Assembly: GCA_045837725.1 (NCBI GenBank)
Contig: JBEWZL010000221.1
Coordinates: 1 to 64,000 of the forward strand
From: Vermamoeba vermiformis
Lineage: Eukaryota
Length of the DNA: 64,000 nt
Direction of reading: 5' to 3'
How positions within the stretch are numbered: the first letter of the stretch is position 1; each line of letters starts with the position of its first letter. The notes under the pieces were generated by a model. The model did not search any database. It worked only from the letters and a program-made list of their open reading frames with translations, and had not been told where the DNA came from. The translations under genes and the position numbers were made by a program. This document shows positions 1 through 18,800 of the stretch, one piece after another.

Positions 1-22
1 TAACCCTAACCCTCAACCCTAA
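1..22 (+). repeat. Telomeric repeat (CCCTAA)n at the chromosome end
   Basis: The window begins taaccctaaccctcaaccctaa, with one variant unit; this is the C-rich strand of a TTAGGG telomere. Confidence 0.9.
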
Positions 23-131
23 TGTCACATACATTGGCCATGGGTGGCGGCTGATTTGTACAAATGTTTGATTGGCCTCTGTGGCTGACTTGCCTCACAC
101 CCAACCGCAGCCCCACCAGCCCTAACCCTAA
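23..131 (+). repeat. Telomere-associated sequence ending in an internal CCCTAACCCTAA
   Basis: C-rich degenerate tract (cacacccaaccgcagccccaccagc) followed by ccctaaccctaa at 120-131. Confidence 0.6.
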
Positions 132-3100
132 AGGGTATATAATCAACGTATTTAAAATACAGGTCATTTAAGCTCAACAAGTGAAAACCACGACCTGCAG
201 CTGCGATCAACAACTTTGAACTCAGCAGCACTGACTTCTTAAGTGCTTTGTATTCGGGAGATGGAGCCCGATCGGAGAAATCAAGTTTCGTATAATGGTA
301 GAGGAGATGGCCCAACAATTCTTTCTTTGTCCACTTGTCACTTTCTAGCTTGCGCTCGGCCATGTCCTCGACAGTTCGAGATATCAACATGTAAATGAAT
401 GAGCCATCAACAGGATGTGGCAATGGTCTGCCATTGGCAACATTGTTAAGCTCCAATACTGCAGACTCGTAAGGCAAAGAGAAACGAGTGAGAACAAACT
501 TCTGCGAGATGCGGTGTTTAAGAACCAGTGATCTCGTTCCCATTGTTGGAATCCATTTCAATCCTACTTGGTGTAGCAGGATTACCATTTGTCGGGTAAT
601 GTCCTTGGCTGTGATGGAGTCTTGAACAGGCACAAGATCTTCGTTGCCTTTGCGGAACCTGGCAAAGTTGAACCACCTCAAGGTCCTGCATAGATGAAGC
701 AGTAAGCATCGATGCAAACAATTAATTTGATATACTTCAAACTTACGAATTAATGCTAGGTAGAGATCCAACTGCATGTTTCCATAAATCGATGAAGTCT
801 GTTTCTTGAATGGTCTCCTTGATAGAGGCCAAGTTTGCCGGGAACAATGCAAGCAAAAGGTCAAGTCCATGGGCACCAGCTGAATTGGTCTCAAAGTCTT
901 CAAGGGGACGGATCGAGCAGAGGGATTCAAAAAGTCTTGAGTGCTTGCTAGCAGGAACGTGCATGTGCGTGAAAAGAGTTTTGAAGAGCATAGAAAGCAA
1001 GTTTGAAGCAATGACCATTGACTTGCTCAGGTACAAGGGCTGGATGAGACTAGATCGGCCAACGAAAAACAGTGCTGCTGCTTTTGAGTAGTTGATGGCA
1101 ACATCCATTGCTTGCTCGTATAAATCACTACCAAATGAGCGATAAAACACGCGTCGAGTGAGGGCAAGGGATTGCGAGACCTGCTGATCTTCTTCATCAC
1201 TTGGATCGACACCAACATTTGCTAAGTTAACAAATGTTCGCAAAGGATTCTCGTGATCGAATGTGAATACGCTAACTGGCAAGTGTATGCGATTGAACTT
1301 GCTGATGTTCTCAATCACACCAAGATGCGAGATCAAAGCGGGATTGCGTAGAGTTGGTATAGATCCACTCCATACCAATTGTTGCAACTAATACAAGGTG
1401 TCAGATAATTAATTTGAGTTATTATAGTACTTACGTCCTCCAGTAGTGCCAGGGCATTGACACAATCAACTTGAAATCGATTGTCTTTCGCTAAATCCAA
1501 TTTTCAGTTAGCAAATAAAATTAAACTTAAACCTTGACGTACCGTTAACTAGTCTATCGAATAGTGATCTATATGTTTTGTTCAATAGCCTTGCTTGATA
1601 AGACACCAGTGAGACCAACGACGGAGTACTGATCACTTGGATCGGGCTGAAGCGGATTGTTTCCAACGGAATCTTTGCCTCTGAGTATAGAGTCGATAAT
1701 GCACAGTGCGTTGCTATGCAGTCACGACCCAATTCCCGAAGGGCTTCAAAGGCACACACGAGTTCATATTTGCCCAAGTTGACGAACGAGACTTCCAACC
1801 GAGCACCGTAAGAGCTACCTTGCAGCACAGACAGAACATGTTCAATTCTGTCTTTCTCTGCCGCTGATGACGTGCATTTGTGTCGAATTGCTTCAGCTCT
1901 ACGTAAATGTTAGAATTCTGTTGGTATAATTAATGCGTCATGTTGATACTTACTTGTTAATGATTGATTGCCGAACTTTATTAGATATTGTCGAGCCAAT
2001 AGTGAGGTCTGAATACGGGAGAACAGCTATAATAAATTGTCAGCGATTTTGCAAAGTCAGTTTAAAGCACATACCTGCCACGTAGCTTCCAGCATCAAAA
2101 GGAGCATCATGGCGCCAGAACTCACATCCCGAGAAGTAGCCCTTGACCTCGCAGACGGAATGCTTCATAGAAGTAAAATGGACCATTACGCTTTGAGCTT
2201 GGCCAATGCCCAGGTTCGGGTAAAACTGGATGCTTGGCTTCGGATCTTTTTCAATCTTGGCCTCTTTACATCGGTCATTCGGGACTTGCAAGTGTCTGAT
2301 AGGAGACAGGCGTGAATTTGCTAATGTTGCCAGCCAATTAGGAGAAAACATAACCGTAAATTGATTTCGTCGATGGTGCGTGGGACTAAAAAATTAATTA
2401 ATATAGATAGCATTAGCTTAATTCTGTATTCATACCTTATTACCAATGCCAAGTCTTGAATAAATACGGTGTTCGCAAACAATTCATTTTTTTCGTTGCA
2501 GATCTCAGCCACGTTAAAAGTGCTCTCAACGTGATCAAGGTATGCGCGTATATCGTTATCGTTGGAAATTATGTCCTTGTTTCCAAAATATTGGAACGAG
2601 AAGATAACCTGAACTCTGTAAAATCAATTAGATTCGGAAAAATTTATGACATTGCAATATAAGAACTTACTGCTTGTTAGCAAAGGCAAATTGCTTTGCT
2701 TGTCTTTCGATATAATCAAATGAAGAGGGTGTTATCGTAGCTCTGACATCTTTAGATCGTGGATCTTCTAAAAACTTTGATAAATTTTGCTGTAAGCCAA
2801 CACGGCCAGCCTGAGCTGATTCCTTGATGCCTAAATTAAGAAAATTAACTATCGAATATAAATATTTAATTGATTTAATTACCTTTTAATAACACATCTC
2901 GATAAAAAGCGTAAATTAATTGGCTACGCTGCTTGCTAGTGTAGTTGAATTGCGGGAAACAGGCATAAATACGCCACTTCTGGTCGATGGTGCTGAATTG
3001 TTTTCATATTAGTGACAAATAAAATTAAATTGTTGACACGCACCCAATTTCCACATTCACTCGTGTGTGCAAGGCCACACCATGATACTTGTGCTTGATC

Positions 3101-3783
3101 TTTGACGAAAACAAGTGGTATTGAGGGGCCATGTGCACACGCATTGCTCGCATCAATACCCGAAGCGTATCTGAGTGAATGGCCGTGGCATCCATGTCCA
3201 GTTGTAGTTCAAAGTCGTGAACGCCCGTTGACGGGAATGCAGGAGTGAGAGATACGTATTTTTTTGAGTTGATCCACCTGGACCAGTGGTCTGTACCGTT
3301 GTCGATGTTCTCATCCAAAGGTGGAAGATCGCGCAAGTCTTCGTCAACGATCTCTTCGAGATTCTTCGTGTAAACGCTTCGAAGAACCTCCTCAGCTTGT
3401 ATGGCTTGTTTCAGGAGATTGGTGCGCCCCTCTGATAACGAGACGACACCAAAAATATTATCGGCCTCTGTAATACTAGAAAAATAGTTAGTATTGCTTT
3501 GTACTATCTAATTAACCAACGGAACTTACTGGTCTAATTCGCAGAGGAGCTTGTATCGTTCATTCGGCTCCATGGACATGAATAAGGACGCATCAAGTGC
3601 TGTCGTTTCAGTTCCGCAAAAAGAGATGTAATCTTCTGCAGAGAGGAGCGGCTCATTGATTGGTTCCTCTTCTTTCTTGACATCTGCTGTTTGAGTCTCG
3701 AATAACTCCGAGTCTTCGCCAGGATCTGGCACGACAACATAGTCATCTTCTTTAAAATCGGACAATGGCTCCAATCGTTGCAT
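25..3783 (-). CDS. Large multi-exon orphan protein of the terminal module; possible frame lesion near 2.7 kb
   Basis: ORFs 3526-3783, 3025-3336, 2321-2512, 2040-2351, 1508-1828, 743-1387 and 25-1011 join through short GT-AG introns. Motifs: LQLDMDA, LHTRVNVEIG, RIYACFP, FIQDLAL, KGYFSGCE, YGARLEV. I could not splice 2670-2760 cleanly in frame. Confidence 0.65.
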
Positions 3784-3852
3784 TCTAGAAATACAATTTA
3801 TTTAGTACACGAATTCCACACTGGGTGGAAATAAAATAAAACCGGATCGAGA

Positions 3853-5963
3853 TCAATGAAAAGTTTGTATCGAGTTTTTGCAAGGCCACGGAGTAAAATA
3901 ATTTTGGGGTAAATTCGTTGGAAACTCTCCAGATCGGATCATCATCCAATCGGTTTCCAAACGACCAAAGTCAGAGATTTGCTGCACAACGGTAGCAAAA
4001 GCCACATCCGTAAATAAGACTGCTGGAACCAGCTTGCAAAGGGCAACGAATGCCAAAACTTCGCTTTTAAATCTAAAATATTACTATTATTATCTTCGTA
4101 ACTCACATAGTGGTAGGTATTAATAACTTACCGACGGAAAACAGTTTTTCGATCCGCAACATTAGCTCCAAAATCCCTTGGAAACGCTCCTGATGCAAGC
4201 ATATTGCTATACGATGGCATTCCCTCGAGTTTGTTTAGCAGAGCTTCGTTTATAGATGCTTCCGAAACTTTGACAGACTTGGATTGAGACTGCTCAAAGT
4301 CCAGTTTGAGCTGTGCTTGTAGACTCTCGAGCACAGTACCAATGACGAATAATTGCGTGTTTTTTGCAATCTAAAAGCCACTTTTAGTAATGTGTTGCCG
4401 ACTGCCGTACAAATTCGAAGCAAACTTACCCTTAGATGTCTTCGTGTTTTGAGACCAATAGCACACGACTTCGAGCAGGCCTCAAATATATCATCTCGTG
4501 ATATACCGGTCAAGTCGTTGTTCCAGCACTTGACAAAATGTGACGGGATCAAGGTCATTGGACTATCAGGCACAGCGACAACAATATTGCTCAAGCTCTC
4601 TCCAGCTTGAATTTGAGCAGTGACTTTGTCGAACAAGTCACTATCAAAGTATCGCTTACTGAGAGTAAGCACGAGTGACGCAGATTTACCTAAATGGAGA
4701 TGGAATACAAGTTCGTTACTGATATTCAAATCTAATCAACTAACTTGACTTACTGTGGATTTTTGAGGCGGACAAATCTGGACTCTCTTCCGGCTCTGAC
4801 TCTGATTCACTGGATTTGGATTTAGAGTTCGATTTTGATTTCTTTGTCTTCTTCTTATCTTTCACGGTGGAATTGCTCTTTTTCTAAGTGAAATAATTTA
4901 CGTTAGTGATAATTGAATAATTATTATTTTAAATACAACGTACCGATTTATTCTGCTCTGCCTCCGAATCTGACTCGTCGGAGTCATCAACTTCAATAAT
5001 TGCTCTAATTACATGATTTTTCGGGTGAACTAGTTCATACAATTATTAGTATAATTTGGCAATAAATAACCGAATTAAATTACCTTTTTTAGATCCGATC
5101 TTGACACCAACCAGCTTGTTCTTTTTAATAATTAAGCGTGCCTTATTTTCCCCAAGGAACTTGACACACATCGAAATTCCTTGAGTGACAGACACTGTTT
5201 AAAACATTAGTGTCTGACACGATTGATTAAGCAATAGCATACCTTCTTCTATATTTTTAATTTCGTTGTCATCATTCTCTAATTTTTTGGTACGGAGTGG
5301 TAGTGGTGAGAGTGGTGGTTTTGGCTCTTCATCAACATTGACAGCTTGATCTGACTCGAGATCACTGACATTCGCGGAACCAAAATCCTCTTCTTCTTGC
5401 GAATCAGGAGGTGAAACTGATTGCAATCCGATAAGCTGGTAATACCATTAGCTGTGGTTGTGGTATGAAATTCAAATTTTTTTGTTTACCTTGAGTCGTT
5501 TCCGGGCCAGCTCTTGAGTCACTTCAATGCGTTTACGCTTTTCGCCAATGGACGAGCTTTCGTTGATTTTTTGCTGAATTTGGGCCACCTCCAAGCATTT
5601 TTCGAAGCAACCTTCCTTGTAGACAGGATTGTGGATGCGCGCATCGAGAAAAGCTTTGACGTCATCCCTATTAATAAAAGACTTACGCAGCACTCGAACA
5701 GCGTAGATAATACTTACGAAATAGCGAGTGGCTGCTGGATTCACTTTGTCAACAGCGAACTTTCTTGATTTTGCCCATTGGAGGACTCGTTTGATTGCCG
5801 ATTCTCTGTTGTCTTTCGAGTGTTTGGATAGATTGTCGAAAACATTCGACAAGCATCCAAGAAAAAGAGATAGATAATTGTAAAATTTCGGGCTTGATTC
5901 TCGATCCGGTATTATCACACACTCGCAAAGAATTTTCTTGTAATAGTTATCTAAATCGGACAT
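3853..5963 (-). CDS. Multi-exon orphan protein with acidic and Lys/Ser-rich middle
   Basis: ATG at 5963 (MSDLDNYY). Exons 5490-5963, 5243-5436, 4250-4729 part, 4128-4334 and 3853-4056 are linked by GT-AG introns; stop at 3853. Confidence 0.6.
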
Positions 5964-6376
5964 ACCGTGCGATACAATGCCGGGTTGACTTGTGGTTGTG
6001 GTTGGTATTGCGTGAAATAAATTGATTGATTACTAAAAGTCGTCGAGGCAGGTCTTTTATGTCTTTCTACGGGAATAACGGCTCTATTTAACGGTAACAA
6101 AGACCATGATTTTGCGCGGGAACAGGTCGTGGTGCTATGCGGAACGTCTGCACGGATTAAGGTTGAAGGCTGCACGAGCGAGGATCCGCCATCCGTCGCA
6201 ATGGCCAACTTTTGAATGAAAATCGAAACTATTCTCCTCCTGACACAATAGGTAATGTACAGTATGATACGAATCTAAGTATCAACATCATAATCCAAAA
6301 CAAGTCGAAACTGCATGACACGCAATATTAAATCAGATGGCGCCGTTTATTTAAATCTGATTTTGAAATACAAAGG

Positions 6377-7931
6377 ATGCCAGAAGACGGAGAAGTTCGT
6401 GCCTCTGGAAAGCTGCTGCATCAATGTACGACTCTGGGCTTGGAGTGCGTATTAATTTGATTCATTCAGGCGTTGGATGGCAATTGACCAGAGCTTTTAA
6501 AACATGCTACAGCAAATGGTGCGTCGAAGCTATGAATATTATGCAATCACAGTTGCCCTTGACGATAGCAGATGTAAGCAGAAAAAATAATTATTATTAT
6601 CGTAATTTTGTTCGCGTTATTTAATTTAGTAGGTCCAAACACAAGGCAAAGAACTGGCGTTAATATTTGGCAATCAATGTTGCTTATTATTTAACTTGGG
6701 GACTGGGGCTGCATTTCACGTGGGACGATCTGAAGAGAAAAACTCGAGCCCACTCGATTACAGAACGAATCTAGCTTTATCATGCTCAAACAGAATGACA
6801 ATCTTTATTGTAGATTGTCATAACACTCAAAATCAGGTGCGGTTGTGTTGGAGAGATAAAACTGCCCCGATCTGGACTGCCGGTCGTGGACCCGATCTGC
6901 TTGACATTGAAGAACAGCATATCATTAACCACGTCTCTGCCTACGTCGAAAATCAGCAGTATCAGAAGTATTTCGAGGTAACAATCGCCATCTGTTCGTT
7001 TTTTAAACTAATTAATTACAGAAAGCAACTCTAATCGAGTGCTTAATCAATCAAAGCTTATTTAATGGCATTGGTGCGTATACTTCTTCGGAAACTTGCT
7101 TTTGGTTGCTCGAGTTAAAAGGTACGATGCCATTTTTAGATCTTGTTCGGAGTAGAATCTTGTTTATTTATTTTTGCAGGAGTACGACCGTGGATTAATT
7201 TCAAAGCCTTCTGTCAGCAATCCGCCGATAATTTACGCATTTTGGTGCGTATTATTCGCGTCTATTTCCGCTTCATGGAAAAGTACATTTCAATACACGG
7301 TGCCCAATATACGTGCATTGATTTCAACGAATGGAAGTGGCAGAATTTTAGATCTGTGTTTTTGCGCTGCTATAGACAGCCAAGTACTCTCCTGAAGGGC
7401 CAACGGGTCAAGATCCAGAAATTCTCATTCGGCATCTCCAAAACGGGAAGTAATGGCATGAAGATAACTCGCTCAAAAGCTCAGTGTTTTACTCCCATCC
7501 TTAACGATGACGAAACACCGCCAACCAATTGGGAAGAAAAAAAAGTGAATCCGATCGGCAGAAACTCGTTGGGTGTAGGCTGGTTCAGCTGGTATGGCTC
7601 AACTGATCGCAGAATTACTCTCAATAGTCAGCGCAAAGATGTATGTATACGTTTCTAGTGAATACATTCATAATTTTTATTCGAGGCTATTCAACTTCGG
7701 CCTCCGACAAAAGATCTGCTTCTTAGAGCAAATACGCCAGAAGTACGACATGGCAACGATTTTGACGATGACATTGAGAGCGAAGAGGACTGTGAGCTAG
7801 AAGCAGAAGAGTTAGAACAGGAAAACTTTCAATTGCCTGCCGTAACTACAAAGAAAAGAGAATCACAGCGAATGCGAGTCGTTACTTGCCTAAACAAAGA
7901 AATGGCAGATATAGTTAAACAAATAAATTAA
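6377..7931 (+). CDS. Divergent Fpg/Nei family (NEIL1-like) DNA glycosylase/AP lyase
   Basis: The spliced product begins MPEDGEVR (catalytic Pro2-Glu3). It continues QGKELALIF..FNLGTG (cf. NEIL1 RGKELRL..FGMSG), IFIVD, WTAGRGPDLL (cf. WQPGRGPCVL), the H2TH motif LIECLINQSLFNGIGAYTSSE..GVRP (cf. ICEALLDQRFFNGIGNYLRAE) and FLRCY, then an acidic tail. Five short introns. Confidence 0.85.
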
Positions 7932-7936
7932 ATTTA

Positions 7937-9350
7937 TTAATTCGAATCCGTAACGGATCCAGACTCGTACCCCCACATTGACGGAGTACACTCATCATCA
8001 CGATTTGGACTCAAAACAATTGCAGTAAGCTCGCTTAGTCCACCATCAAGGTCGTGATGAGGTACAGGAGAGGTCTGTTTGAAACGTGAGAACCGGCTCT
8101 TTGTTGAACTTCGCTGAATTAATACGTCGTTTCGTAATACTGGAGTACTGTGTCGATCAATATCATCAACTTGAATATATTCTGCAGTGTCACGGCAGAG
8201 AATTTGCTCAAAAAATGCTCCTTTTTGATAGAGCATCTTTCCAATCTGCTTTCGCTTTTCAATGGCAAGGCGAACAGCTCTTTCAATATGATCCTCGATA
8301 TCAATAGAATCGATAGAATAGTCTTCCGAGACCCTTGGCCTTTCTTGGACCTGTAATCGAGATTCAGAACGATCTGCTGCGTAAAATTATCTGAAAGGAT
8401 TTACCTGAAATGATCCGCCACTGAATACTACATGAAAGTATTCATCCAATCGCGTTTCTACCAGAATTTTTCTGTCTTGAATTAATTTAATCGTGACTGA
8501 TCGAGTTTTCAGATCTCACCGCATTCTCTCGAGTTGTGCTCCTGGTCTTGTCTGTTTGGGCCGAGTACTCCTCAGTATTGAATTTAATATTGCGAGGTCG
8601 AACCAGTAGCCCTCACGGGTGCATTGGTTAATGTTAACTCGCAGATCGGAAATATTTATTTCTGTAATTATATCAGTACCGTAATACTAATTGTAAATAA
8701 ATTTGCTTACTTGAACTATGGTACTGTTCTTTGGCAAGTTGTTTGATTTTTGAAAGCCCGATCGACGTAAAGTTTGCAATTCCCAAAGGACTAAGCATCA
8801 GCCGGCGGGTGTCATTATGAAATAGAATTCGGTGTTCCTTAAAATATCTAAGATTCGTTAGGATTAGCTTGCACAAAATAATAACTTACGTGTAGTCCTG
8901 ATCGAGTGACATGTCAAACTGAATTTGCTTACTAAGTAAATTTTATAAGCTATTTTAACCACAATTGTTAATGTTGACTATCCATTAAGTCTAACGATGC
9001 ATCGACGTAACCGAACTCAAGCTACTAATCCGGAAGATCAACAAATTGATCAGAGATCACAAAAAGTTGCCAAACAAATTGAATTGCCTCAATGATAACG
9101 ATCTATGCATTGATCGTGCAGCATTTAGTCGCTTAGTTTAGTAAGTGGTAAAATTAAGCGCATTTTAGACCTGATCGACTCTAACAAAATATTTACAGTG
9201 AAATAACTAATTCAATTAAAGCGGACACCTACTGGAACGGTGATGCTCTATTTATTCTACATTTAATTTCCGAACAATTCCTTTCTGAGTTTTTTGAGCT
9301 TTGTCGGATGAAGGCCAAAACCGAAGATCGCGTTACTATCACCGCTGACA
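7937..9350 (-). CDS. Hypothetical multi-exon orphan gene, convergent with the Nei-like gene; start uncertain
   Basis: ORF pieces 7937-8236, 8119-8304 and 8673-8876, with minus-strand splice signals (ttac/ctcac on +). Its stop is 5 bp from the Nei-like stop. Confidence 0.4.
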
Positions 9351-9885
9351 ATTTAAAATCGTTTATCAACACTCAAAATAGCAATCCGATATAATTTTGT
9401 AAGCCCAAGTTGTTATTCTTGCTCAATAAATCACTCGAGCAATTTCTAACTGTCGTTAATTGAATCGCGCCTGGATACCACAATTAACGTAGCATAGACC
9501 TTCCTATTTTTCGAGATTTTAGAATATATCATTAGCCAATCCTCCGTGCAGAGGTGTCAAACGTGACACCTGAGGACTTCGCGCATCTAGAATCTTAAGC
9601 CTGCAATAATTCTTACTTAAGTGTAAATTTACTGTAAGTAAATTTATCTTTTAAATGGCGGATGGATCGTTTTCAATCCAATCCAGAAAGTCTCCAACCG
9701 AGTTGGCCGTACTCATTGTTTGGACTCGTCCAAATAATCACTTATATTGAAAATTATTGAATCGTATTAGTACGATATTCTCTTTTAATTTAAATGCAGT
9801 TATTACTTGATTCGCAGATTTGTAACTCGATTTTACTGTTATTTATTAAGAGATGTAGCCGAGTGTCAATGACGCGACGATGCTA

Positions 9886-10063
9886 AGAGGGTCGCCAATG
9901 ACCCGTTGGCAGAGTTACACATGACATTTTGCATACTTTCTGCTGGCGTGATCGCGACACATCTGCAGCTATTTTCGGCTGGGCTAGAGGAGAGGGTCGC
10001 CAAGGACCCGTCTAATAGCTCAAAGAGCTCTAAGTCTTGCGGAGAGGGTCGCCAATGACCCGT
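9886..10063. repeat. Three copies of the 21-bp palindromic repeat AGAGGGTCGCCAAKGACCCGT
   Basis: Copies at 9886, 9991 and 10043 with a GGGTC-N6-GACCC inverted core; the spacers are unrelated to each other. Confidence 0.9.
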
Positions 10064-11592
10064 CTGCGTGACTGTGGGCTCCATAGCCAGATGCAACGGA
10101 TGCTGTCGTGCTTCCACAACAGAGCATTTAAACTCCATTTTTACAATATTTATTATTGTCAATTATCGATTATCTGCACTTTGAACTAAATATAAGAATT
10201 AAAGCCAAAGAAACGGTTTTAATTAATTGGAGAATTTATTTCGGATCGTGTGTTTGTCACAGGCCTGTTCGTGCCCTTTACCGTCCAATGTCTGGACGGT
10301 GTAATTACAATCGCAAAGCAATGGTCTCGTAAAGGTCTCACCTACGAGCGCGCTTCGTTTGGAACCTTGCTTCACGCCAGATGACAGGAGTGAGAGCTGT
10401 GCCGAATCAGATAATCCGAATCACGGAGTTGTCTCGTGCTTGAGAGACAGATTGGGCACCATTAATTGTAATTATAAAGTAAAGAAAAACACCTGTGGTC
10501 GAATGAACAAATAATGCGTAAAACTTGACCGTTGCGAGCATCGGTGTGGTTATTCAGTGAAAATTCGGGAAACGAAATCTCCGCAAGATCCTCTCGGTTT
10601 GATTTTGTTGCAACGGTCAACAAGAAGAGCTCACGAGAAATATCGAGGTGTTAAAACTATGGCACAGATGCACGCACCGATGCAGTCATTCCTCCCGGGT
10701 ACCTTCGCTAGATTACTCGGAACGAGATACGAACTTGACAGATTGACTTCGTAAGATCTTAGCGTGGCCACTACCACTGATGGTTTCTCAATTGGCAATT
10801 TGTACTCGCGCACAAAGGTTAGTTGCTTGTGCAGAATACACCACAGCTCTACAAGTTGATGGCGAATTGAATTGAAATCGAATCCGTTCTTGGTCTCAAA
10901 ATGGTTAGTAATTTATTTAATAAATTAGCACATATCATTTCAAGATTCACGTGAATCACGAACCAATTAATGCTGTCATTATAAATTTATTTCACTTAGT
11001 TAATATTCGATAGATTTGCAAGTTTGCCGTGAGAGCTCATGGAACTGGAGCACGTAAGTACTGCAACTGTGTTATATGTGTTCGTGTACATTTGCCTAAA
11101 CTCTTAATTCAGGTTGGTGAGCTTTGATATCGAACATTTGATGGACGTGGACGAGTCTGCTCAGCAAGCCCTGAAGTGCCTCACCGCAGCCAGCAAATAG
11201 TGCGAAAGTTTTGAACCTCACTGTCTGTGTATCGAGCTCACAGAGGAGTGCTACCCACTTGTGCTAAGGTTGTTCAAGCTCGCAATCATCTCGTGTTGGT
11301 ACCGTCTCGAAGGAGAACTCACGGACTTATGGTACTCGACTCACCACATCCCGCAAATGTACTGCAACGGGTGTGCAATCTTGTGTTCATGGAGCACGCA
11401 TGCGTGCCACTAAAACTGCTCTCCATCGACAAGCTCTTCTGCGTTGCGATCCGCAGGTTATTATTATTAAGTCTGTCCAAATTTGTAATTTGTAATTCCC
11501 TATTAAATAACTTAAATATGTTTAGTCGTGTCACTACAGATTTACTATCAGGTTGAATATTTTTTTTTATTTAGACGAAAGTTCATTTCTTA

Positions 11593-12189
11593 ACAGATCG
11601 ACCACAAGGGTCGAATTATTGATTATTTATTGATTATTAGCACCTGTTAGTGACGCGCCACGACGTCAACGTCGTTTCAGCGCGAGGTATTTCGGATTAG
11701 TCAAATTTGCACGTGTCAATTTTGAAAGTATTTTTAAAACCGAAGACAGATCGACCACAAGGGTCGATTTATTTATTTGTTGGTATTACAACGTTGTAAT
11801 TACAGCTGACAGTAACGCGCTGCGGCATCTGAGCCGTTCCAGCGCGAGTTATTTCGGATCAGAGCTGATGCGAAAATGGCGCACGGGCTATTTCGCATCA
11901 GTAATTCAACAGAACGACCACAAAGGTCGTTATATTTATTTATTATTGTTAATGAACAACAGATAGTTACGCGCCACGGCCACAACGGCCGTTCAGCGCG
12001 AGTTATTTCGAGGATTGGCAGTCGCGAACTTGGATTCGCAACAGGTCGGCCACAAGGGTCGATTTGTTTATTTAGATAGCTTATTGTTTATTAACACACA
12101 CGCGCCAAACGACAATCAGCGTCGTTCCAGCGCGAGACTCAGCGCACGATCTCAGTAGTCATGCGAATCTCGGTGCAGTGACCGAGATT
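11593..12189. ncRNA. Four-unit array of structured multi-hairpin elements (candidate ncRNA or ssDNA structure)
   Basis: Units start at 11593, 11746, 11909 and 12041. Each has ACAGR-TCGACC-ACAAG-GGTCGA-like hairpin A, an AT-rich linker, ACGCGC-[variable hairpin]-CAGCGCGAG (hairpin B), TATTTCG in three units, and a third variable hairpin. The stems covary. Confidence 0.6.
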
Positions 12190-12689
12190 ATTCAAGGTAA
12201 TAATGTTCCATTAATACTACCAATTAAGTATTCGTAAATCATTAAATATAAATCATTTTTCCGTAGCATTATTTTAATTCGTAATCAATTTTAAATTCGA
12301 ATGTTTAAATCCAAATCTTTGCTTAATTATGGTTTTTATTTAAATTACAATATACTGACATATTATTTATCAATACAGAAACATATAATAATATTGATTT
12401 GCCGATCAAATCGCCTTGATTATTTGTAAAAGAACGAGAACTGCAATCACGTAAGAGTTATTAATCTGTTCGTTTTATTATATATATGGCACTAATTTAG
12501 TTAGCATACAATTCTTTGAGATCTGTGGCGTATTCCAGCTCGTAAGTCATAATTTACTATACAGCACTAATTAATAGAATTCATAGCACTCAAAATGACA
12601 GTGATCACGTTCATGCATTAAGTCGGCTCGTAAGTATTTTTAATGGTACGAATTTGTTTTACGGCCAATATTAGTTGCTATGGCTCGCA

Positions 12690-13903
12690 TTGGACGGACC
12701 CTCTGTGCCGTGCCTTCAACGTCCTCTTCTTCACAACACCTGCGTGACTTGCACTGTCCAAGACTTGGACGCTTGGTGTTGCGTGGCTCGCACCTCCCGG
12801 TTATTGGTGCTATCCTCTACACCGTGCCATCAGCGTGCCACCGTCCAGTTATTGGACGGTCCCCTCAGTGCATGGCTCGTACCGTCCAGTTATCGGACGG
12901 TCCTTCAGTGCATGGCTCGCACCGTCCAGTTATTGGACGGTCCCCTCAGTGCGTGGTTCTCACCGTCCAGTTATTGGACGGTCCTTCAGTGCGTGGCTCG
13001 TACCGTCCAGTTATTGGACGGTCCTCTCTGCATGATCAAGATGCATTTGAGCTCGCCCCGAACGACCGCAACGGTAAGTATTTTTAATGGTACGGATTTG
13101 TATTAACAGCCAATAGTAGTTGTTGTGCCTTGCATTGTCCAGCCGTTGGGCGGACCCTCTGCGCCGTGCCTTCAACGTGACACCGTCCAGTTATCGGACG
13201 GTCCCTCAGTGCGTGGCTCGCACCGTCCAGTTATTGGACGGTCCCTTCTGTGATGTGCCTTCAACGTGACACCGTCCAGTTATTGGACGGTCTCCTCAGT
13301 GTGGCTTGCACTATTCTCGCACCTGTCCAAGACTTGGACGCTTCATTGTGCGTAGCTCGCACCGTCCAGACTCTGGACGCTTCACCTCACACTGGCTGAG
13401 AGTAAGTCCAATTTAATTTACAATTAAGCAGGCAACAATCTGACTGTTCTCTTTAGGACCAAAGTATGCAGGTGTCAGCAACGCTGTCCAAATTCTGGAC
13501 GCTTGGTTGCCTCTGCGTGGTTCGTTGCAAACCGCTAAGTGTTGCACATTTCTCGGGCTTGGCTTGCACGATCCAGTTATTGGACGGTCCCTTCTGTGGC
13601 ACGCCTTCAACATGACACCGTCCAGTTATTGGACGGTCTCCTCAGTGTGGCTCGCACCAAGTCTTGGACTTGTTATTGGTGCAGTGCTCGTGCTGTCCAC
13701 GGTTCACTCTGTACTGTGCCTTTAGTGCAACCGTCCAGTTATTGGACGGACCCTGAAGCTGGACGCTTGGCTGGTACCAAGTGGCTCTGTGTGGCTCACA
13801 GCATACCGTTCGAGTATTGAACACTTTTGAGCTGCATGGCTTGCGCATGCAGAGTCTGTGGACGCTTCTCTTGTTGGCTGTCTGCCTGTCCAAGTCTTGG
13901 ATG
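12690..13903. repeat. Palindromic minisatellite ACCGTCCA-GTTAT-TGGACGGT (40-41-bp unit, with higher-order duplication)
   Basis: Full cores at 12841, 12882, 12922, 12963, 13003, 13183, 13223, 13272, 13618 and 13731, a partial core at 13572, and GTCCA-N5-TGGAC/T variants at 12756, 13325, 13364, 13486 and 13888. Confidence 0.95.
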
Positions 13904-14028
13904 TTTGCCTTGGTAATTACTCATGCCTGCTTGTGGCCTGTCTTGTACCTTGTACCACCCTGTACACCCTTTGTACTTTTAAATTAAAAGTTTATTTTTT
14001 ATAAACAGCTAGTGCACTGAGGTTGCGG

Positions 14029-14045
14029 CCTAGCCCCAACCCTAA
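14029..14045 (+). repeat. Degenerate interstitial telomeric remnant
   Basis: cctagccccaaccctaa reads as three degenerate CCCTAA units, in the same orientation as the terminal telomere and just after the repeat zone. Confidence 0.45.
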
Positions 14046-14280
14046 TCTTTATAAAGTGAAAGAGATCAGCAAGGTCATTTCATGCAACCCTATTAGTATC
14101 TCAAGTTGTTTATACTGGTATCCTTTGCTTATTATTAACTTCATACACAACTTACTAACTTGTATTCCAGCTGTAAAACATCTGTACTGTAAAAATAAAA
14201 AGTGTATAACTTCTAAATTTTTCTGGATTTTGTCAAAGGGCATGGGGCATGTCCATTTTTTTCCAGGTATATGTGAACTC

Positions 14281-15857
14281 ATGCACGCCAATCCAATGCA
14301 GCAAGTTTGAGTTCAATAGCTTGCCTAGTAACAAAGTTATAGCAGCAGTTGTAAAGCATTTATTAGAGCAGCAGGATAAGGCATATATGTACGTAGCTAT
14401 GCCAAACCATATATTCTTATAAACCGTTCAATATTAGGCTCAAATAACGGCTGATCAGTGTCTCACTGCATATCGCCAAAACCCGAAATGGAAAGGCGGT
14501 GAACCGCACCTTGAGTGGATTAAAACACTAAAGATCAAAGGGACATTCACGGAACAGCAATACAAGAACGCTGCCAGGCACGTAAGTTTAAATTCTTGGA
14601 ATCTAGATCGACTACTCATCATTCTATTGCTTCAGGTAGCAGCCACATGGAGGCGTTACCGTAATAGCAACAAGACAGTCATCATTCAAGCCACTTACAG
14701 CGATATATGGGGTACTGATGAGTTTCCTGTTGCAATAACGGATCGAAATCTGGAGCCGTTTTTCAACTCCGAGTCTGGTGCTGCTCAGCTCCAACGCTGG
14801 ATCCTAAAGAAGCTAATGAAGATTAGCGACAGTAATTTGAGCATAACGACACCGCCGGCTCTTTACGTAGCGTGGATCAGGCAAAAATTCATCAAACTAC
14901 GCAGTGAGTCCAAAACGGTTATTAGCAATACTTTATTAATATATGATAGGGTGATTCAAGGACCAAAAGGAGATGTATGCTGAATTGCGACTGAAGATGA
15001 AGGAGCTAGAAGGGCAACACGCCGAACAAGAGCTGCTGCGGGATTTCAAGGGATCTTTGGAAAAAGAAGAAGAGGAAAGAGTACCGAACAACAACAATGG
15101 TAAGAAGAGTCCCAAGGCTGGCAAAAGAAAACGAGACTTGGTCAACAAGAAGATCCGAGATGAACTTGACGAAGAGGAAGATCTTACGCCCAAGAAGTCG
15201 ACATCGCGAAAGAAGGCAAAGTCTACAAAGGCGAAAGAAGGCCAGTCTCCTGAAAAGCCACTGAAGACAAGCAAGAAGAAAACAAAGAAATCTACAAAGA
15301 CGACAGAAGACGCGCCTCTCCTTGTTCAACTACCCGGATCCGACAAGTCAGTGACTTCAACAACCGAGAAGCCCACTGACGAAGCAGCGCCTGTTAAGAA
15401 AACCATCAACAAGCCCAAAGCTGTGCCGCCTCAAAAAGCGAAGCCCGTGGCAATGAAAAATCAGGACAACAACCACGACTTGGACTTTACTTTTGCGTTC
15501 TCGATGCCTTCATCGCCAAAGGTCAACAAAAGAACCAAGAAACAAGCGGAAGAGAAGGAGAAGAGGGGTGTAGAAGAGAACGTGGAGCCTCAGGCGATGG
15601 CTCGAGCGACAAGATCCCAGAGTGCGACCGTTACAAGCAACGATAAATCCAAAAAGAGTAAGTATTAATAATAATGTACATATTTTATTATTATTCTAAC
15701 ACTATTTTATCGAGGAACTGCTCGCGATGCCAGCTTGAGCGAATCTACTTCAAACACACAAAAGAAAAAACAGAAATCGGTAAATCCTTCATAAACCGTT
15801 ATTTTATTTCATATTATTAATTCTATTACTTTTACACTATAGACCTCTCCGTAGTTG
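14281..15857 (+). CDS. Hypothetical multi-exon protein with a long Lys/Glu-rich low-complexity C-terminus; both ends uncertain
   Basis: Exons near 14438-14581, 14636-14903 and 14950-15656 with GT-AG introns; ORF 14973-15668. Confidence 0.55.
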
Positions 15858-15879
15858 CCATCGTGGTACTCTAGTGTTG

Positions 15880-18800
15880 TTGGTTTGGGAGAAGGAACAA
15901 GATCAAGACATTCAGTGCATCTTAATTGAAATTTCATTCAATTTGTGCCTGAGACTAGTCCACAGATAGTCAAAGACAAAGCCCACAAGGTGCTTGAGGC
16001 AAAATTTAAAGCGAACAAAGGTGTCATGGCAGTCAGACTAGCATTGGCACTTGGGTTTTGCAAGTTGTATGTGTCAGGAAGATATGTAGACCTAGAAATT
16101 CTTGGGCACTTAATGATGAAGGCCATAGTGGATGTGTTTGAATCAGCAGAGCCAATTAAACATCTTTTAAATTGCTTTTTTAAGAGGAAAGCTTCTTTTC
16201 TCTCTGAATTCTGACAACAATAGTTTCACAGCAAAGATTTTCAGCTCAGTTTTCAACCTGGCCTTTAAACAAGTGCTGCAGTTGGTGATCAACAATGGGG
16301 AGCCTATTCAATTACTCCTATTGTTCTACGCTGAATTGATCGTCAATCCATTGCAAAAAAGTGATGTTTGTATGTTTGCAATACAACAATTGGCCTCTGC
16401 AGGTATTAAACAGCACCATAAATCATTTATATTAACGTTAATTGTGGTCCAGGTGGGCTCAATAAAAACTCCATCGGAACCATTAAAAATTTACTTTGGT
16501 TGGCACCAAATAAAACAGAGGTTGCTCAACGGTGTGAAAACTTACTTGGCAAACAGCACAAACAAGTCAAGCTCCATTATACAAAGTTAATTAAATTTCT
16601 CACAGAATCAAAATCGCAAACACAAGTTAACTCACGAAAATAAGAGTCTGTTAATCAGGCACAATTTGGAATCAAAAGATGCTTGTCATTACAAAAAAAC
16701 AGAAAACACAAAATAAATAAGTTTAAGTTGCATCTACCTTTCCTCGCTCTGACTTTGCCCCCACTTTGCAGTCTCACTGAATATTGTTGCACTATGCTGA
16801 CTCAAAGAGGACATTCTCATTTTTCTTCTTTTGTAAGTGCTTATTTAACATACATACGTCAATAATATAACTGTAGAATCATATTATCCTGGGTTCCATT
16901 TTCTGGTCCAAACATTTTAAATACTAAGCGATGTTTACTAGAATGCAAGCCAATAAGGCTTTCTATACACTGAATAATTGCATGTTTTGACAAATAGAAT
17001 GATAAAATAATCCTTTTTAACTATTAAAAAGTACATACATCCAACATTACTTTTCCTTCTTTTTTCTGGCAGCATTCCCAAACTCTTTTCCCAGCAAAAC
17101 AGTTTATATAATTCATTTGAAATATATTGTACATGGTTACTGATATTGGGTAACGGAAAATCAGAAATAAAAATTTGGGCAACCAGCAAATGCCCAGAAA
17201 ACAACAGTGCAAAGCAACTTAAAAGAGGGCATCAGCCCCAAATACTTTTCCACCATGAACACAACAAAACAAGGGGATCATGGCTCCCATCATCTGTAGA
17301 GCTATGGCACCAACCATTTGCAGCAAAACAAAAAGAAGTTCCTCTCCAATTGGTAGAGTCCTTCCAAGAGCTCCTCTCTGGAACTCACTGGCTTGCTCAT
17401 GATAGTTAGAAATGTAGTTTGGCAAAATTGCGTTGTTACAGTCAAACAGTAAAGTTTTATTGTGGTTTGAGGCCACATGCTTGCCGATAATTATGTCCAT
17501 ACCACTTTCTCAGATAGTTGCTAATGATAGTGCAGCCACCTCTAAGAAGTGACCCAATCCCTTCGATTACTCAGTACTTGCCAGCTACAGAAATGGATGA
17601 AAATGAAATCAATATGCACACCTTGATATGGCTTTGCCCCACATTACATGAGTTCTTGCTGCAGCAACAGGTAAAATCCTGTTGGGAAGACTCCATCCCC
17701 ATTTGGCCAAAAGTCTTAGTTACAAAGGTAGAAATTCAGTGGTGGGATAACACTAACTTGTATTTAACTCGGGTGAAGCTGACTTCATTTACACTAACTT
17801 CAAAAGAGATAAATAGACTGAGTGTTCAGTGATTAACTCTTGTTAAGCTAATTAAAAAAGTACGTCATAATTGTCCCCACTGTGTGCATCAATTTGTAGC
17901 ATAGAAATTTGTATGACCTATCACCCAAGAGCTTACAACTAGCATGACCTTGAAGTACTTGACACCTAAACTTTTCACAGTGTGTGTGCATATCTCGAAG
18001 TATCCCAAATTCCGGCAATATTAGGCAACAAATAGATAGAGATAGGAGGCGGCAGATTAACTTCAGCAGAGCAACGGAAAGCCAAGATGCTGCTTGTATC
18101 ATCCTCGACTGCACCCTGTAGCTTTCCAGTCCTTGACTGGTGACAGTCTAACTGTCAAACAATCTAATCTTGGAAAAAAAAAGAGACATCAGTTGTATTA
18201 ATTTGTACTTTATTGATAATAAAAGATCAAGATCAACCAAAAAACATTCCTTCATAATTATTTGCCAATAGAAAAAACGTTGATTCATTTGATTCTATGG
18301 CTGATTCTTCTTGAGATCCTCAGGAACAAAGTAAGTAGATTCTGTATAATTAATATATTATTAACTAACTAATTGTAATCAGAACTCACTCATTTTTGGC
18401 AGAGTGGTGATTGAGAGATCTGTTGGTTTGTCCAACACATTCTTCTCCATGAGAAGAACTCACACTTCCAATCTCTTTCATTGCTCATTGCAGGCCTTCA
18501 TTCCATCTTCTAGCTGCAACAACTTCTCAAACAGCTTGAAAACCTTTCACTAGGTTCGCAGGTAACCTCAACATAAAAGTCTGCTCCTGTTCCATCATGG
18601 TGTCCACAGCAGTGCAGCAAGCCTTCATGATGAGTGGCAGCAAGTGATCGTTGCCTGTTATGATGTATCCTTGGGACTGTGTCAGAAAGGCCAGTTCCTT
18701 TATCATTTTTTCCTTGCCGGAGATCACAGTGGTGGCCCTGTCGTCGACACAGATCCAAGCAGGAATCGAGAGAGCCAAGAACTAGGCTCTCAATCTCTTG

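What the first reader, a model, noticed from the sequence alone, without database searches (positions are those of the whole stretch)
1..14045. Candidate new telomere-terminal element: orphan genes + Nei-like glycosylase + hairpin arrays
Seen: the first 14 kb lies between the true telomere and a degenerate internal CCCTAA remnant in the same orientation. It holds tightly packed non-housekeeping genes (two tandem orphans, a head-to-head Nei-like gene and a convergent orphan), then about 4.5 kb of non-coding DNA with three palindrome families. I recognised no RT, DDE transposase, tyrosine recombinase, PolB or helicase motif. Inference: a self-contained selfish or telomere-maintenance module added to the chromosome end, whose proteins act on its own arrays.
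Basis: partly seen in the sequence, partly recalled or inferred. Interest (0 to 1): 0.85.

Follow-up and report, generated by a model that had tools for sequence, protein, structure and literature searches.

The report
Conserved gene block at chromosome end
The last 14 kb of this chromosome is a single-copy, evolutionarily conserved block of five intron-bearing genes (one a very divergent DNA-repair glycosylase) followed by conserved small-hairpin repeats, and it does not behave like a mobile telomere element.

Summary
The observation mostly holds. Short CCCTAA repeats sit at 1-22 and 120-131. Packed genes fill 25-9394. Three palindrome families lie at 9.9-13.8 kb. The 'internal telomere remnant' (14034-14045) is one 12-mer with a mismatch and is not distinguishable from chance.

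The 'Nei-like' call is right. The spliced 434-aa protein aligns with bacterial Fpg over residues 1-213 (hhalign 94.6%), and two structure models retrieve Fpg/MutM/Nei/NEIL1 at the top. Pfam does not detect it.

The 'selfish telomere element' reading is not supported:
- In the source run, contig depth over 117-11620 (281-294) matches the flank (200-322), so the genes are single copy.
- No RT, transposase or helicase domain was found.
- A related organism in metagenomes carries the same genes in the same order and orientation. There, transposase fragments, not a telomere, follow gene 1.
- In the window the telomere repeat starts about five codons past the conserved end of gene 1, which suggests terminal truncation.

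One result was unexpected. Hairpin families a and c are conserved next to the genes in that relative, and family a shows compensatory stem changes. Family b is a dispersed repeat.

The parts
1..22 (.). Terminal CCCTAA-type telomere repeats (about 3.5 units, one imperfect)
   Evidence: bin 1-667 has excess depth in the source run
23..119 (.). 97-nt non-telomeric spacer between two telomere-repeat patches. It may be a telomere-associated sequence shared by several chromosome ends.
   Evidence: The source-run contig that covers the unique DNA starts at 117, and summed depth in bin 1-667 is about 4x. The multi-copy status is inferred.
120..131 (.). Two perfect CCCTAA repeats that abut the conserved end of the g1 coding sequence
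25..3783 (-). g1: 11 exons, 1078 aa in my model. Homology to the relative ends at about 138-142. The frame then reads through the telomere repeat to a stop at 25-27. No Pfam domain. Weak alpha-solenoid-like leads only.
3853..5963 (-). g2: 8 exons, about 571 aa, with a K/S/E-rich middle. No known family. Conserved in the relative (46-67% identity in pieces).
6377..7931 (+). g3: divergent Fpg/Nei-superfamily protein, 434 aa. Exons are 6377-6425, 6470-6573, 6633-6977, 7022-7121, 7180-7640 and 7686-7931. It has an N-terminal MPEDGEV, a GKEL lysine strand, and an H2TH-like motif LINQSLFNGIGAYTSSE.
7937..8930 (-). g4: convergent with g3 (5 nt between the two stop codons). No known family. The conserved part is 7937-8858. 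The 5' end is uncertain.
8990..9394 (+). g5: small H3-like histone-fold gene. Exon 1 ends at 9140 and exon 2 is 9199-9394. The window copy has no in-frame ATG.
9875..10076 (+). Hairpin family a, 3 copies. The core is GGGTC-N6-GACCC with a 5-7 bp outer stem. Conserved in the relative (5 copies), with compensatory changes in the outer stem.
10280..10302 (+). Lone c-type palindrome (CCGTCCA-N5-TGGACGG). A counterpart lies just downstream of g5 in the relative.
11575..12200 (+). Family b: four tandem units of about 155 bp, each with two hairpins. The second hairpin's inner stem differs between units but stays complementary. Depth is about 13-29x in the source run, so this is a dispersed repeat. 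It is not shared in sequence with the relative.
12690..13753 (+). Family c array: at least 13 units, period 40/41 nt within higher-order repeats of 342-346 nt (family D3). The core CGTCCA-N5-TGGACGGTCC is conserved in the relative. No compensatory changes were seen.
14034..14045 (+). It is at chance level.

Best explanation
Region 1-14 kb is the native, single-copy end of a nuclear chromosome of an intron-rich microbial eukaryote. It is not a mobile or telomere-specific element.

It holds a vertically inherited block of five lineage-restricted genes:
- g1, a large and probably alpha-helical protein
- g2, a K/S/E-rich protein
- g3, a very divergent Fpg/Nei-family DNA glycosylase/AP-lyase candidate that keeps the N-terminal Pro-Glu...Glu and the strand lysine
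- g4, of unknown family
- g5, an H3-like histone-fold protein

The genes are followed by non-coding DNA. In that DNA, two locus-specific stem-loop motifs (a, c) are under constraint, and a genome-wide dispersed ~155-bp hairpin repeat (b) has settled.

The present telomere lies where the chromosome was cut, within a few codons of the end of g1. The end was then healed or capped. As a result g1 lost its own stop codon and 3' UTR (inferred).

The a and c arrays most likely act in cis, either as stem-loops in a + strand, spliced, non-coding transcript or as palindromic protein-binding sites. This step is inferred, not shown.
For: Single copy: three source-run contigs cover 117-11620 at depth 293.7, 283.5 and 281. 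Unique flank contigs at 13.6-19.2 kb have depth 200-322.

Native look:
- Introns with GTAAGT-type donors and CTAAC-like branch sites run throughout.
- GC 0.39-0.46 is like the rest of the window.
- GC3 of 0.33-0.48 lies mostly within the flank genes' range of 0.41-0.63; g4 (0.33) is below it.

No mobility gene: Pfam found no significant family in 15 exon ORFs. A scan of viral contigs confirmed 0 of 26 pattern matches.

Orthologous block:
- Metagenome loci L001-L005 are 98.5-99.7% alike, so they are treated as one relative.
- They are collinear with window 138-9376: g1, g2, g3, g4 and g5 in the same order and orientation, at 40-76% amino-acid identity per piece.
- Beyond g1 that relative has at least 3.3 kb with DDE_Tnp_4 (30.9 bits) and DDE_3 (46.2 bits) fragments and no match to the window.

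Truncation: g1 orthologues stop 3-8 codons after the shared ...YF.Y[LV]D. In the window the telomere repeat starts 5 codons after it, and the frame runs on to position 25.

g3 is Fpg/Nei:
- A profile of 29 bacterial Fpg sequences aligns collinearly from Met-Pro-Glu through the lysine strand and GP[DE] to the H2TH motif. Scores are 19.0, 12.7, 10.8 and 6.0 bits for the 4 family members.
- None of 2002 shuffled or reversed controls reached 9.5 bits (maximum 5.8).
- hhalign gives 94.6% probability over 189 columns.
- Foldseek and VIA-align on two models put Fpg/MutM/Nei/NEIL1 first, with Z up to 5.8 and 6.5.

Arrays:
- Motifs a and c recur downstream of g5 in the relative, while nothing else there aligns.
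- Family a: 91.7% of 96 cells are paired against 36-46% when the partner is slid. Four of 12 pairs change on both sides.
- Depth over a is about 1x, so a is not a genome-wide repeat. Depth over c is about 4x in bin 12674-13340 and about 1x in bin 13341-14007; I read the excess as the array's own copies, which is inferred.
- GTAAGT occurs 6:0 (+:-) in the window's array region, 7:0 in L002 and 5:0 in L003, against 37:45 window-wide.
Against: - The conserved linkage of genes with arrays is also what a self-contained module would show.
- Synteny rests on a single relative. The more distant L006 is a 1.5-kb contig that holds only g3.
- The relative's flank is transposon-rich and could itself be subtelomeric. 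Its contig ends were not seen.
- Depth is a per-contig k-mer mean from contigs of the probable source run. It is not an independent copy-number measure.
- No whole assembly was available, so other chromosome ends could not be compared.
- No expression data exist for the locus.
- The Fpg/Nei fold matches are weak taken singly: Foldseek E 0.006-0.4 and Z below 8. Pfam's own thresholds are not met.
- The covariation in family a comes from 8 related copies, and the structure was derived from those same copies. Only 1 of the 2 'pairs/types' measures stands out (121/500 shuffles reach the number of pairs with double changes).
- Several of the strand-biased GTAAGT sites lie inside repeat units, so they are not independent.
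Confidence: 0.7

Rival explanations
1. A functional, co-inherited protein-plus-array module. The neighbouring DNA/chromatin proteins (Nei-like g3, H3-like g5, perhaps g1, g2 and g4) act on, or are regulated through, the adjacent a/c stem-loop arrays. The arrays could work as an RNA scaffold or as DNA sites. Genes and arrays would then stay linked by selection rather than by mere synteny.
For: Genes and motifs a and c are linked in the same order in two organisms whose proteins are only 40-76% identical, while the surrounding non-coding DNA is unalignable. Family a keeps its stem through compensatory changes. Over a, depth is about 1x, so a is locus-specific; over c it is about 4x in one bin and about 1x in the next, which the array's own copies may explain. 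From recall, Fpg/Nei enzymes of the NEIL type prefer single-stranded, bubble and hairpin-like DNA.
Against: There is no evidence of binding, co-expression or transcription. Five-gene microsynteny at this divergence needs no special explanation. Family c shows no covariation: 0 of 8 pairs. g5 in the window lacks an in-frame start.
Confidence: 0.15
2. One reading: a selfish or telomere-maintenance element that adds itself to chromosome ends, bounded by the true telomere and an old internal telomere at 14034-14045.
For: The block is terminal in the window, with telomere-like repeats at 1-22 and 120-131 and a telomere-like 12-mer at 14034 in the same orientation. The genes have no annotated relatives. 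Genes and arrays are linked in a relative.
Against: Depth indicates a single copy. No RT, transposase, recombinase or helicase domain was found. The genes carry spliceosomal introns and host-like composition. The block is not terminal in the relative. The telomere cuts into the end of g1. The 12-mer is at chance level, 0.14 expected. There are no viral relatives.
Confidence: 0.04
3. The arrays are only decayed repeat or transposon debris (foldback or MITE-like) typical of subtelomeres. Their likeness between the two organisms would then reflect a shared repeat family rather than constraint at an orthologous site.
For: Family b is clearly a dispersed repeat: summed depth is 8300 and 3706 in bins 11340-12673 against about 290, with many alternative junctions. 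The relative has an unrelated 153-bp tandem repeat at the matching place. Family c has higher-order duplication.
Against: Family a is at about 1x depth in this genome, and c is at about 1x in one of its two bins and about 4x in the other, far below b's 13-29x. The motifs occur in the same order, next to the same gene, in both organisms. Family a shows compensatory changes.
Confidence: 0.1

Closest known systems
Fpg/Nei (H2TH) DNA glycosylases, especially NEIL1-type enzymes without a zinc finger
   Same: N-terminal Met-Pro-Glu..Glu-Val, a Gly-Lys strand at the place of the catalytic lysine, a GP[DE] linker and an L.NQ.LFNGIG..T..E helix-two-turn-helix motif, all collinear with Fpg. The beta-sandwich model matches MutM, Fpg, Nei and NEIL1, with 25-29% identity to NEIL1 over about 70 aligned residues. 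There is no CxxC...CxxC zinc finger (seen in the sequence).
   Different: It is invisible to Pfam. The best result is PF01149 at E 0.25 on one homologue, and there is no H2TH hit. PDB sequence and profile searches also miss it. The conserved Asn of G-[IV]-G-N is Ala or Glu. The C-terminal half (about 220 aa) has no recognised counterpart and modelled poorly. Activity is untested.
Telomere-specific or subtelomeric selfish elements (HeT-A/TART-type retrotransposons, Penelope-like terminal elements, yeast Y' helicase elements). Named from recall.
   Same: Position next to a telomere, with genes that have no housekeeping annotation.
   Different: No RT or helicase, single copy, spliceosomal introns, and not terminal in the relative.
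Healed or truncated chromosome ends (de novo telomere addition or telomere capture after a terminal break). General knowledge, recalled.
   Same: Telomere repeats abut unique coding DNA directly, and the gene's native stop codon and 3' UTR are missing relative to its orthologues.
   Different: A 97-nt non-telomeric stretch lies between two short repeat patches. No polymorphic untruncated allele was seen.
Repeated stem-loop arrays in non-coding RNAs (for example the A-repeat of Xist). Recalled and offered only as an analogy.
   Same: Many copies of a short conserved stem-loop, separated by variable spacers, in one orientation. Splice-donor-like signals lie on the same strand.
   Different: No transcript has been shown. 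Family c shows sequence conservation but no structural covariation, so double-stranded protein-binding palindromes fit equally well.
Histone H3 / centromeric-H3-like histone-fold proteins (for g5)
   Same: Pfam Histone scores above the curated cut-off (27.5 bits against 26.4 in the window; 31 bits in the relative). All 11 weak PDB sequence hits are H3.
   Different: Very divergent, with no H3-type N-terminal tail recognised. The window copy has no in-frame ATG.

Membership tests
Fpg/Nei (H2TH) DNA glycosylase superfamily | N-terminal Pro (after Met removal) as nucleophile, followed by catalytic Glu | tested here: met
   g3 starts MPEDGEV. The relative starts MPEDGEI. hhalign pairs these residues with MPELPEV of Fpg.
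Fpg/Nei (H2TH) DNA glycosylase superfamily | Conserved Lys in the R/x-G-K strand of the N-terminal domain | tested here: met
   QGKEL aligns with RGKYL in hmmsearch and hhalign. The residue is kept in the 6 homologue fragments that reach this strand (window, P0004, P0005, P0006, P0010, L006).
Fpg/Nei (H2TH) DNA glycosylase superfamily | N-terminal two-layer beta-sandwich fold | tested here: met
   Exon-3 model (pLDDT 70.7): Foldseek ranks Fpg, MutM, NEIL1 and NEIL3 on top (E 0.075-0.4, probability up to 0.99), and all 50 VIA rows shown are of this family (Z 4.2-5.8). Homologue P0005 model: Foldseek's first 39 rows are all of this family (E 0.006-0.07), with VIA Z up to 6.5. Each score is modest; the consistency carries the call.
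Fpg/Nei (H2TH) DNA glycosylase superfamily | Helix-two-turn-helix motif (LLDQ..aG.GN.Y..E.L) | tested here: met
   LINQSLFNGIGAYTSSE aligns with LLDQ..vAGiGNIYaDE in the profile comparisons. The Asn is replaced. The structure of this part was modelled at pLDDT below 50, so the support comes from sequence only.
Fpg/Nei (H2TH) DNA glycosylase superfamily | C-terminal zinc finger or 'zincless finger' with the DNA-binding Arg | tested here: inconclusive
   No four-Cys motif is present in the sequence. hhalign stops at residue 213. The C-terminal model is of low confidence.
Fpg/Nei (H2TH) DNA glycosylase superfamily | Match to the curated family models (Pfam PF01149 / PF06831) above their cut-offs | tested here: not met
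   No hit for the window's exons or for P0005. The best is PF01149 at 12.4 bits (cut-off 25.5) on P0006. Only single exons could be scanned for the window.
Fpg/Nei (H2TH) DNA glycosylase superfamily | Glycosylase / AP-lyase activity | not testable with these tools
   Needs an enzyme assay.
Telomere-specific mobile element | Encodes its own replication or integration enzyme (RT, helicase, recombinase, transposase) | tested here: not met
   Pfam found no significant family in 15 exon ORFs. Only single exons were scanned, so a very divergent enzyme is not excluded.
Telomere-specific mobile element | Several copies, at more than one chromosome end | tested here: not met
   Contig depth is 281-294 over the genes against 200-322 in the flank. 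The whole assembly was not available.
Telomere-specific mobile element | Terminal position kept in relatives | tested here: not met
   In L001, at least 3.3 kb with transposase fragments lie beyond g1. The remaining 2.3 kb of that contig were not seen.
Histone H3-like histone fold (g5) | Match to Pfam Histone (PF00125) above the curated cut-off | tested here: met
   27.5 bits in the window and 31 bits in L002, against a cut-off of 26.4, over profile positions 64-117.
Histone H3-like histone fold (g5) | Intact open reading frame with a start codon | tested here: not met
   The conserved frame of exon 1 in the window has no ATG after the last stop. The nearby ATG at 8997 is out of frame. The relative has an intact 116-aa frame.

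The most novel reading that the evidence does not exclude
The a and c stem-loop arrays may be exons of a conserved, spliced, + strand non-coding RNA, or a bank of palindromic DNA sites, that works together with the proteins encoded next door. Those proteins are a catalytically equipped but highly divergent Nei-type enzyme and an H3-like protein. Together they would form a co-inherited 'protein plus repeated-hairpin target' chromatin or repair module of a kind not described before. In this genome the module happens to have become the chromosome end.
Probability: 0.12. Interest if true: 0.7.

Novelty: new variant of a known kind. Interest (0 to 1): 0.38.

Why it matters
The region removes a candidate 'new telomere element' from the list. 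It also gives three modest leads.

1. A clade of Fpg/Nei-type proteins in microbial eukaryotes that standard domain models miss. It keeps the catalytic N-terminus, so it would widen the known range of this repair family.
2. Short stem-loop motifs that stay linked to a gene block across deep divergence. One of them shows compensatory changes, which makes this a testable case of a conserved structured non-coding element.
3. A chromosome end that seems to have been healed right at a gene's stop codon. This is a natural example of terminal truncation that produces a read-through tail.

Tried and rejected
- Whole-genome comparison of chromosome ends: not possible, because no genome is held. Loci L001-L003 are not in held records.
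- Expression: no RNA holder was listed. Two RNA runs with the same species label were laid. Only 12 and 15 reads (of about 13 million records read each) touched the 20 kb, almost all on repeat b. Flank genes were equally empty, so the runs say nothing about this locus. An older DNA run, X7, held only repeat b.
- Pfam on single exons, PDB sequence searches with exons, with P0005 and with a family profile: no Nei hit.
- Word-index homologue searches. g3 exon 5, longer proteins: none. g1 last exon, longer: only P0018. P0005, near lengths: only itself and P0019.
- ESM Atlas. g1 exon: scores of 0.89 or lower for mixed alpha-solenoid families, leads only. g2 exon: nothing usable.
- Rfam at gathering score over the whole window and at E up to 1 over 9400-14100: 0 matches. 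tRNA scan: 0 genes.
- Viral contigs scan with the g3 family: 0 of 26 pattern matches confirmed.
- Coding reading of array c: the 81-nt period leaves all three frames open in the window, but spacings in the relative (52-74 nt) are not multiples of three. Rejected.
- Coding reading of the relative's 153-bp repeat: the 97-nt 'exons' carry stops. Rejected.
- Homology between window family b and the relative's 153-bp repeat: none found by short-word blastn.
- The full-length model of homologue P0005 was poor beyond residue ~115 (pLDDT 53.9 overall).
- Three long hits of the representative search (P0013-P0015, 992-2346 aa, 5-8 short stretches each) were dropped without inspection as probable repeat-protein noise.
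- Literature. 'Nei-like' + 'subtelomeric' + 'hairpin': 0 papers. 'Fpg Nei' + 'zincless finger' + 'phylogenetic': 0 papers. 'zincless finger' + 'NEIL1': 28 papers, of which 8 were seen as a listing only and none bears on this case. The accession prefix of L006: 0 papers.
- Earlier findings of this scan: nothing on record.
- Supplementary files of papers were not consulted.

Full report
WHAT IS THERE

The window starts with TAACCCTAACCCTCAACCCTAA (1-22). After 97 unrelated bases it has CCCTAACCCTAA at 120-131. The C-rich strand at the 5' end is the orientation expected for a left chromosome end.

In contigs of the probable source DNA run, summed depth in bin 1-667 is 1257, against about 290 further in. 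The unique contig starts at 117. The terminal ~117 nt therefore look multi-copy, as telomere-associated sequence would. The tract held in the window is very short, so I call the telomere plausible, not proven.

The proposed inner boundary, CCCCAACCCTAA at 14034-14045, is a single 12-mer with one mismatch. The same search expects 0.14 such matches per window by chance. CCCTAA hexamers overall are at chance: 19 found, 16.3 expected. I do not accept it as a telomere remnant.

GENES

No whole genome is held. Gene models therefore come from my own splice-aware ORF chaining. They were checked against a relative by tblastn and tblastx.

- g1 (-, 3783..25): 11 exons, 1078 aa.
- g2 (-, 5963..3853): about 571 aa, with a K/S/E-rich middle.
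- g3 (+, 6377..7931): six exons, 434 aa, head-to-head with g2.
- g4 (-, ~8930..7937): convergent with g3, with 5 nt between the two stop codons.

Introns are 44-61 nt, with GTAAGT-like donors and CTAAC-like branch sites. Pfam found no significant family in 15 exon ORFs.

Composition is unremarkable. GC is 0.39-0.46, as in the rest of the window. GC3 is 0.33-0.48, against 0.41-0.63 for seven flank ORFs.

The gene just inside 14 kb (about 14.2-16.7 kb, lysine-rich) also has no Pfam family. So 14045 does not separate 'odd' genes from 'ordinary' ones.

COPY NUMBER

Three source-run contigs cover 117-2885, 2856-8913 and 8889-11620 at mean word depth 293.7, 283.5 and 281. Unique flank contigs at 13.6-19.2 kb have depth 199.9, 232, 216.9 and 322.5. 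The gene block is therefore single copy, within the limits of this measure. It is a contig k-mer mean from a run that is probably the assembly's own source.

By contrast, bins 11340-12006 and 12007-12673 sum to 8300 and 3706, with many alternative junctions. Family b is therefore a dispersed repeat of some tens of copies. Bin 12674-13340 (array c) is about 4x, which the array's own 13 copies can explain (inferred). Bins over family a are about 1x.

A RELATIVE WITH THE SAME BLOCK

A full HMMER scan of 1.84 billion representative proteins with g3 exon 3 gave 14 hits at E up to 0.001. Eleven of them are exon-sized ORFs at 30-67% identity that end at the same ...YF[EK]|V exon border. I set aside three long multi-stretch hits unexamined.

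A metagenome scan with the family alignment confirmed 6 of 48 pattern matches. L001-L005 are 98.5-99.7% identical where they overlap, so I treat them as one relative. L006 is a more distant 1.5-kb contig that holds only g3.

L001 3337-12231 is collinear with window 138-8858. L002 and L003 extend the match to 9376. The five genes g1, g2, g3, g4 and g5 lie in the same order and orientation, at 40-76% amino-acid identity per piece. The genes are thus lineage-restricted rather than orphans. One word-index search each found almost no other relatives.

In that relative the block is not terminal. Beyond g1 lie at least 3.3 kb with Harbinger-type (DDE_Tnp_4, 30.9 bits) and Tc1/mariner-type (DDE_3, 46.2 bits) fragments and no match to the window. 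A further 2.3 kb of that contig were not seen.

THE TELOMERE CUTS g1

Orthologues end ...YFTYLDIEGVLSN* (L001) and ...YFTYLDLEN (P0018). The window reads ...YFKYVDYIPF and then runs straight into the reverse-complemented telomere repeat. It continues for 37 more codons to a stop at 25-27.

The simplest reading is a terminal break within a few codons of the g1 stop, followed by healing or capture of a telomere. This is inferred. It is the opposite of a module 'added' to an older end.

g3 IS A DIVERGENT Fpg/Nei PROTEIN

Single exons, the homologue P0005 and a family profile found nothing in Pfam or in PDB sequences. The only exception was a sub-threshold PF01149 match on P0006, E 0.25, in the right register.

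Structure:
- The exon-3 model (12-row alignment, pLDDT 70.7) retrieves Fpg, MutM, NEIL1 and NEIL3 first in Foldseek (E 0.075-0.4, probability up to 0.99).
- All 50 rows shown by VIA-align are of that family (Z 4.2-5.8; NEIL1 at 25-29% identity over about 70 residues).
- The model of P0005 is good only in its first ~115 residues. Its first 39 Foldseek rows are again all of that family (E 0.006-0.07), and VIA Z reaches 6.5.
- Each score is modest, and Z below 8 can be a common fold.

Independent sequence test:
- I built a profile from 29 bacterial Fpg proteins taken from loci L037-L065.
- I ran it against four spliced or intron-trimmed family members inside the script box.
- It aligns collinearly from Met-Pro-Glu through the lysine strand and the GP[DE] linker to the H2TH motif. 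Scores are 19.0, 12.7, 10.8 and 6.0 bits.
- None of 2002 shuffled or reversed controls reached 9.5 bits (maximum 5.8).
- hhalign gives 94.6% probability, E 6.7e-8, over 189 columns: g3 1-213 against Fpg 1-198.

The N-terminal MPEDGE[VI], the GKE[LI] strand and the LFNG[IL]G motif are conserved in the relatives. There is no four-cysteine finger. The C-terminal ~220 residues remain unassigned. I file g3 as a new, Pfam-invisible variant of the Fpg/Nei superfamily that is probably catalytically competent. Its activity is untested.

g5 AND THE OTHER GENES

- g5: Pfam Histone scores above its cut-off (27.5 bits in the window, 31 in the relative; cut-off 26.4). The only weak PDB sequence hits, 11 of 11, are H3. 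The relative has an intact 116-aa frame. The conserved frame in the window has no ATG, so that copy may be damaged or start differently.
- g1: only weak alpha-solenoid-type Atlas leads, at 0.89 or lower.
- g2: no lead.

THE ARRAYS

All three palindrome families are real. All 7 tested units fold as hairpins, with z from -1.7 to -5.2.

The unexpected result is that the relative has the same motifs downstream of g5:
- five copies of GAGAGGGTCTCCAGTGACCC-type units (family a);
- a lone CCGTCCA-N5-TGGACGG palindrome;
- a 153-bp tandem repeat;
- three or four GCGTCCAAATTCTGGACGGTCC units (family c).

Nothing else in these non-coding stretches aligns.

Family a forms a 12-bp interrupted stem.
- Over 8 copies from both organisms, 91.7% of 96 cells pair, against 36-46% with the partner slid.
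- Four pairs change on both sides, in 8 cells.
- Shuffles reach the observed value in 1/500 (percentage paired), 0/500 (cells with double change), 1/500 (covariation score), 121/500 (pairs with double change) and 168/500 (pair types).
- The structure was derived from these same copies, so this is suggestive rather than proof.

Family c keeps its palindrome by sequence. 90.3% of cells pair, but 0 of 8 pairs show a double change. That fits a double-stranded dimer-binding site as well as a hairpin.

Family b is specific to the window's genome. Its second hairpin has different but complementary inner stems in the four units. It is dispersed. The relative's 153-bp repeat is unrelated: 97 nt plus a 56-nt intron-like segment, and non-coding.

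GTAAGT occurs only on the + strand of the array regions: 6:0 in the window, 7:0 in L002 and 5:0 in L003, against 37:45 over the whole window. Several of these sites lie inside repeat units. This hints at a spliced + strand transcript.

No expression data could be obtained. The two RNA runs laid gave 12 and 15 reads, almost all on repeat b, and left the flank genes equally empty. Rfam and the tRNA scan found nothing.

VERDICT

The region is best read as the native end of the chromosome: a conserved, single-copy gene block plus constrained non-coding stem-loop motifs. It is now terminal because of a truncation next to g1.

The 'selfish telomere-terminal element' reading lacks its defining features: copies, an enzyme of its own, and a terminal position in relatives.

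What remains open, and mildly interesting, is why two short stem-loop motifs stay linked to these genes across deep divergence.

The taxon was not determined. The uS5 protein in the flank is closest to animal and plant sequences among solved ribosomes. No paper bearing on this case was found in four searches. Supplements were not consulted.

Noticed in passing
window 25-145: The g1 reading frame has lost its native stop. It reads through the reverse-complemented telomere repeat (120-131) and the 97-nt spacer to a stop at 25-27, which adds a tail of about 37 aa that is absent from the orthologues.
   Followed up: partly
Its conserved frame has no ATG in the window (the ATG at 8997 is out of frame), while the relative's copy is intact.
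   Followed up: partly
L001 1224-1691 and 2486-3070: Fragments of a Harbinger-type (DDE_Tnp_4) and a Tc1/mariner-type (DDE_3) transposase lie just beyond the g1 orthologue in the relative.
   Followed up: partly
window 11340-12673: Repeat family b is the only part of the 20 kb touched by RNA reads and by an older DNA run of the same species label, at 90-95% likeness. It is therefore widespread, and possibly transcribed, in related strains.
   Followed up: no
L002 9062-9980; L003 7535-8203: A tandem 153-bp repeat in which each unit is 97 nt plus a 56-nt segment with full intron signals (GTAAGT, a TACTAAT-like branch site, TTTAG). The 97-nt parts carry stops, so this looks like a repeated exon-intron unit of a non-coding transcript.
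   Followed up: partly
window 3023: A source-run contig with a 4-nt deletion (depth 187, alongside the main form at 283) lies inside a g1 intron. It is probably a second haplotype of the same locus.
   Followed up: no
window 14249-16700: A lysine-rich multi-exon gene just inside the proposed boundary also has no Pfam family, so the gene content does not change character at 14 kb.
   Followed up: no
window 36240-37775: A 512-aa uninterrupted ORF on the - strand has no Pfam family.
   Followed up: no
window 12630-12674 and 13066-13110: Two near-identical intron-like segments (GTAAGTATTTTTAATGGTACG...) bracket blocks of array c. This shows higher-order duplication of the array, with 444-nt spacing.
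   Followed up: no
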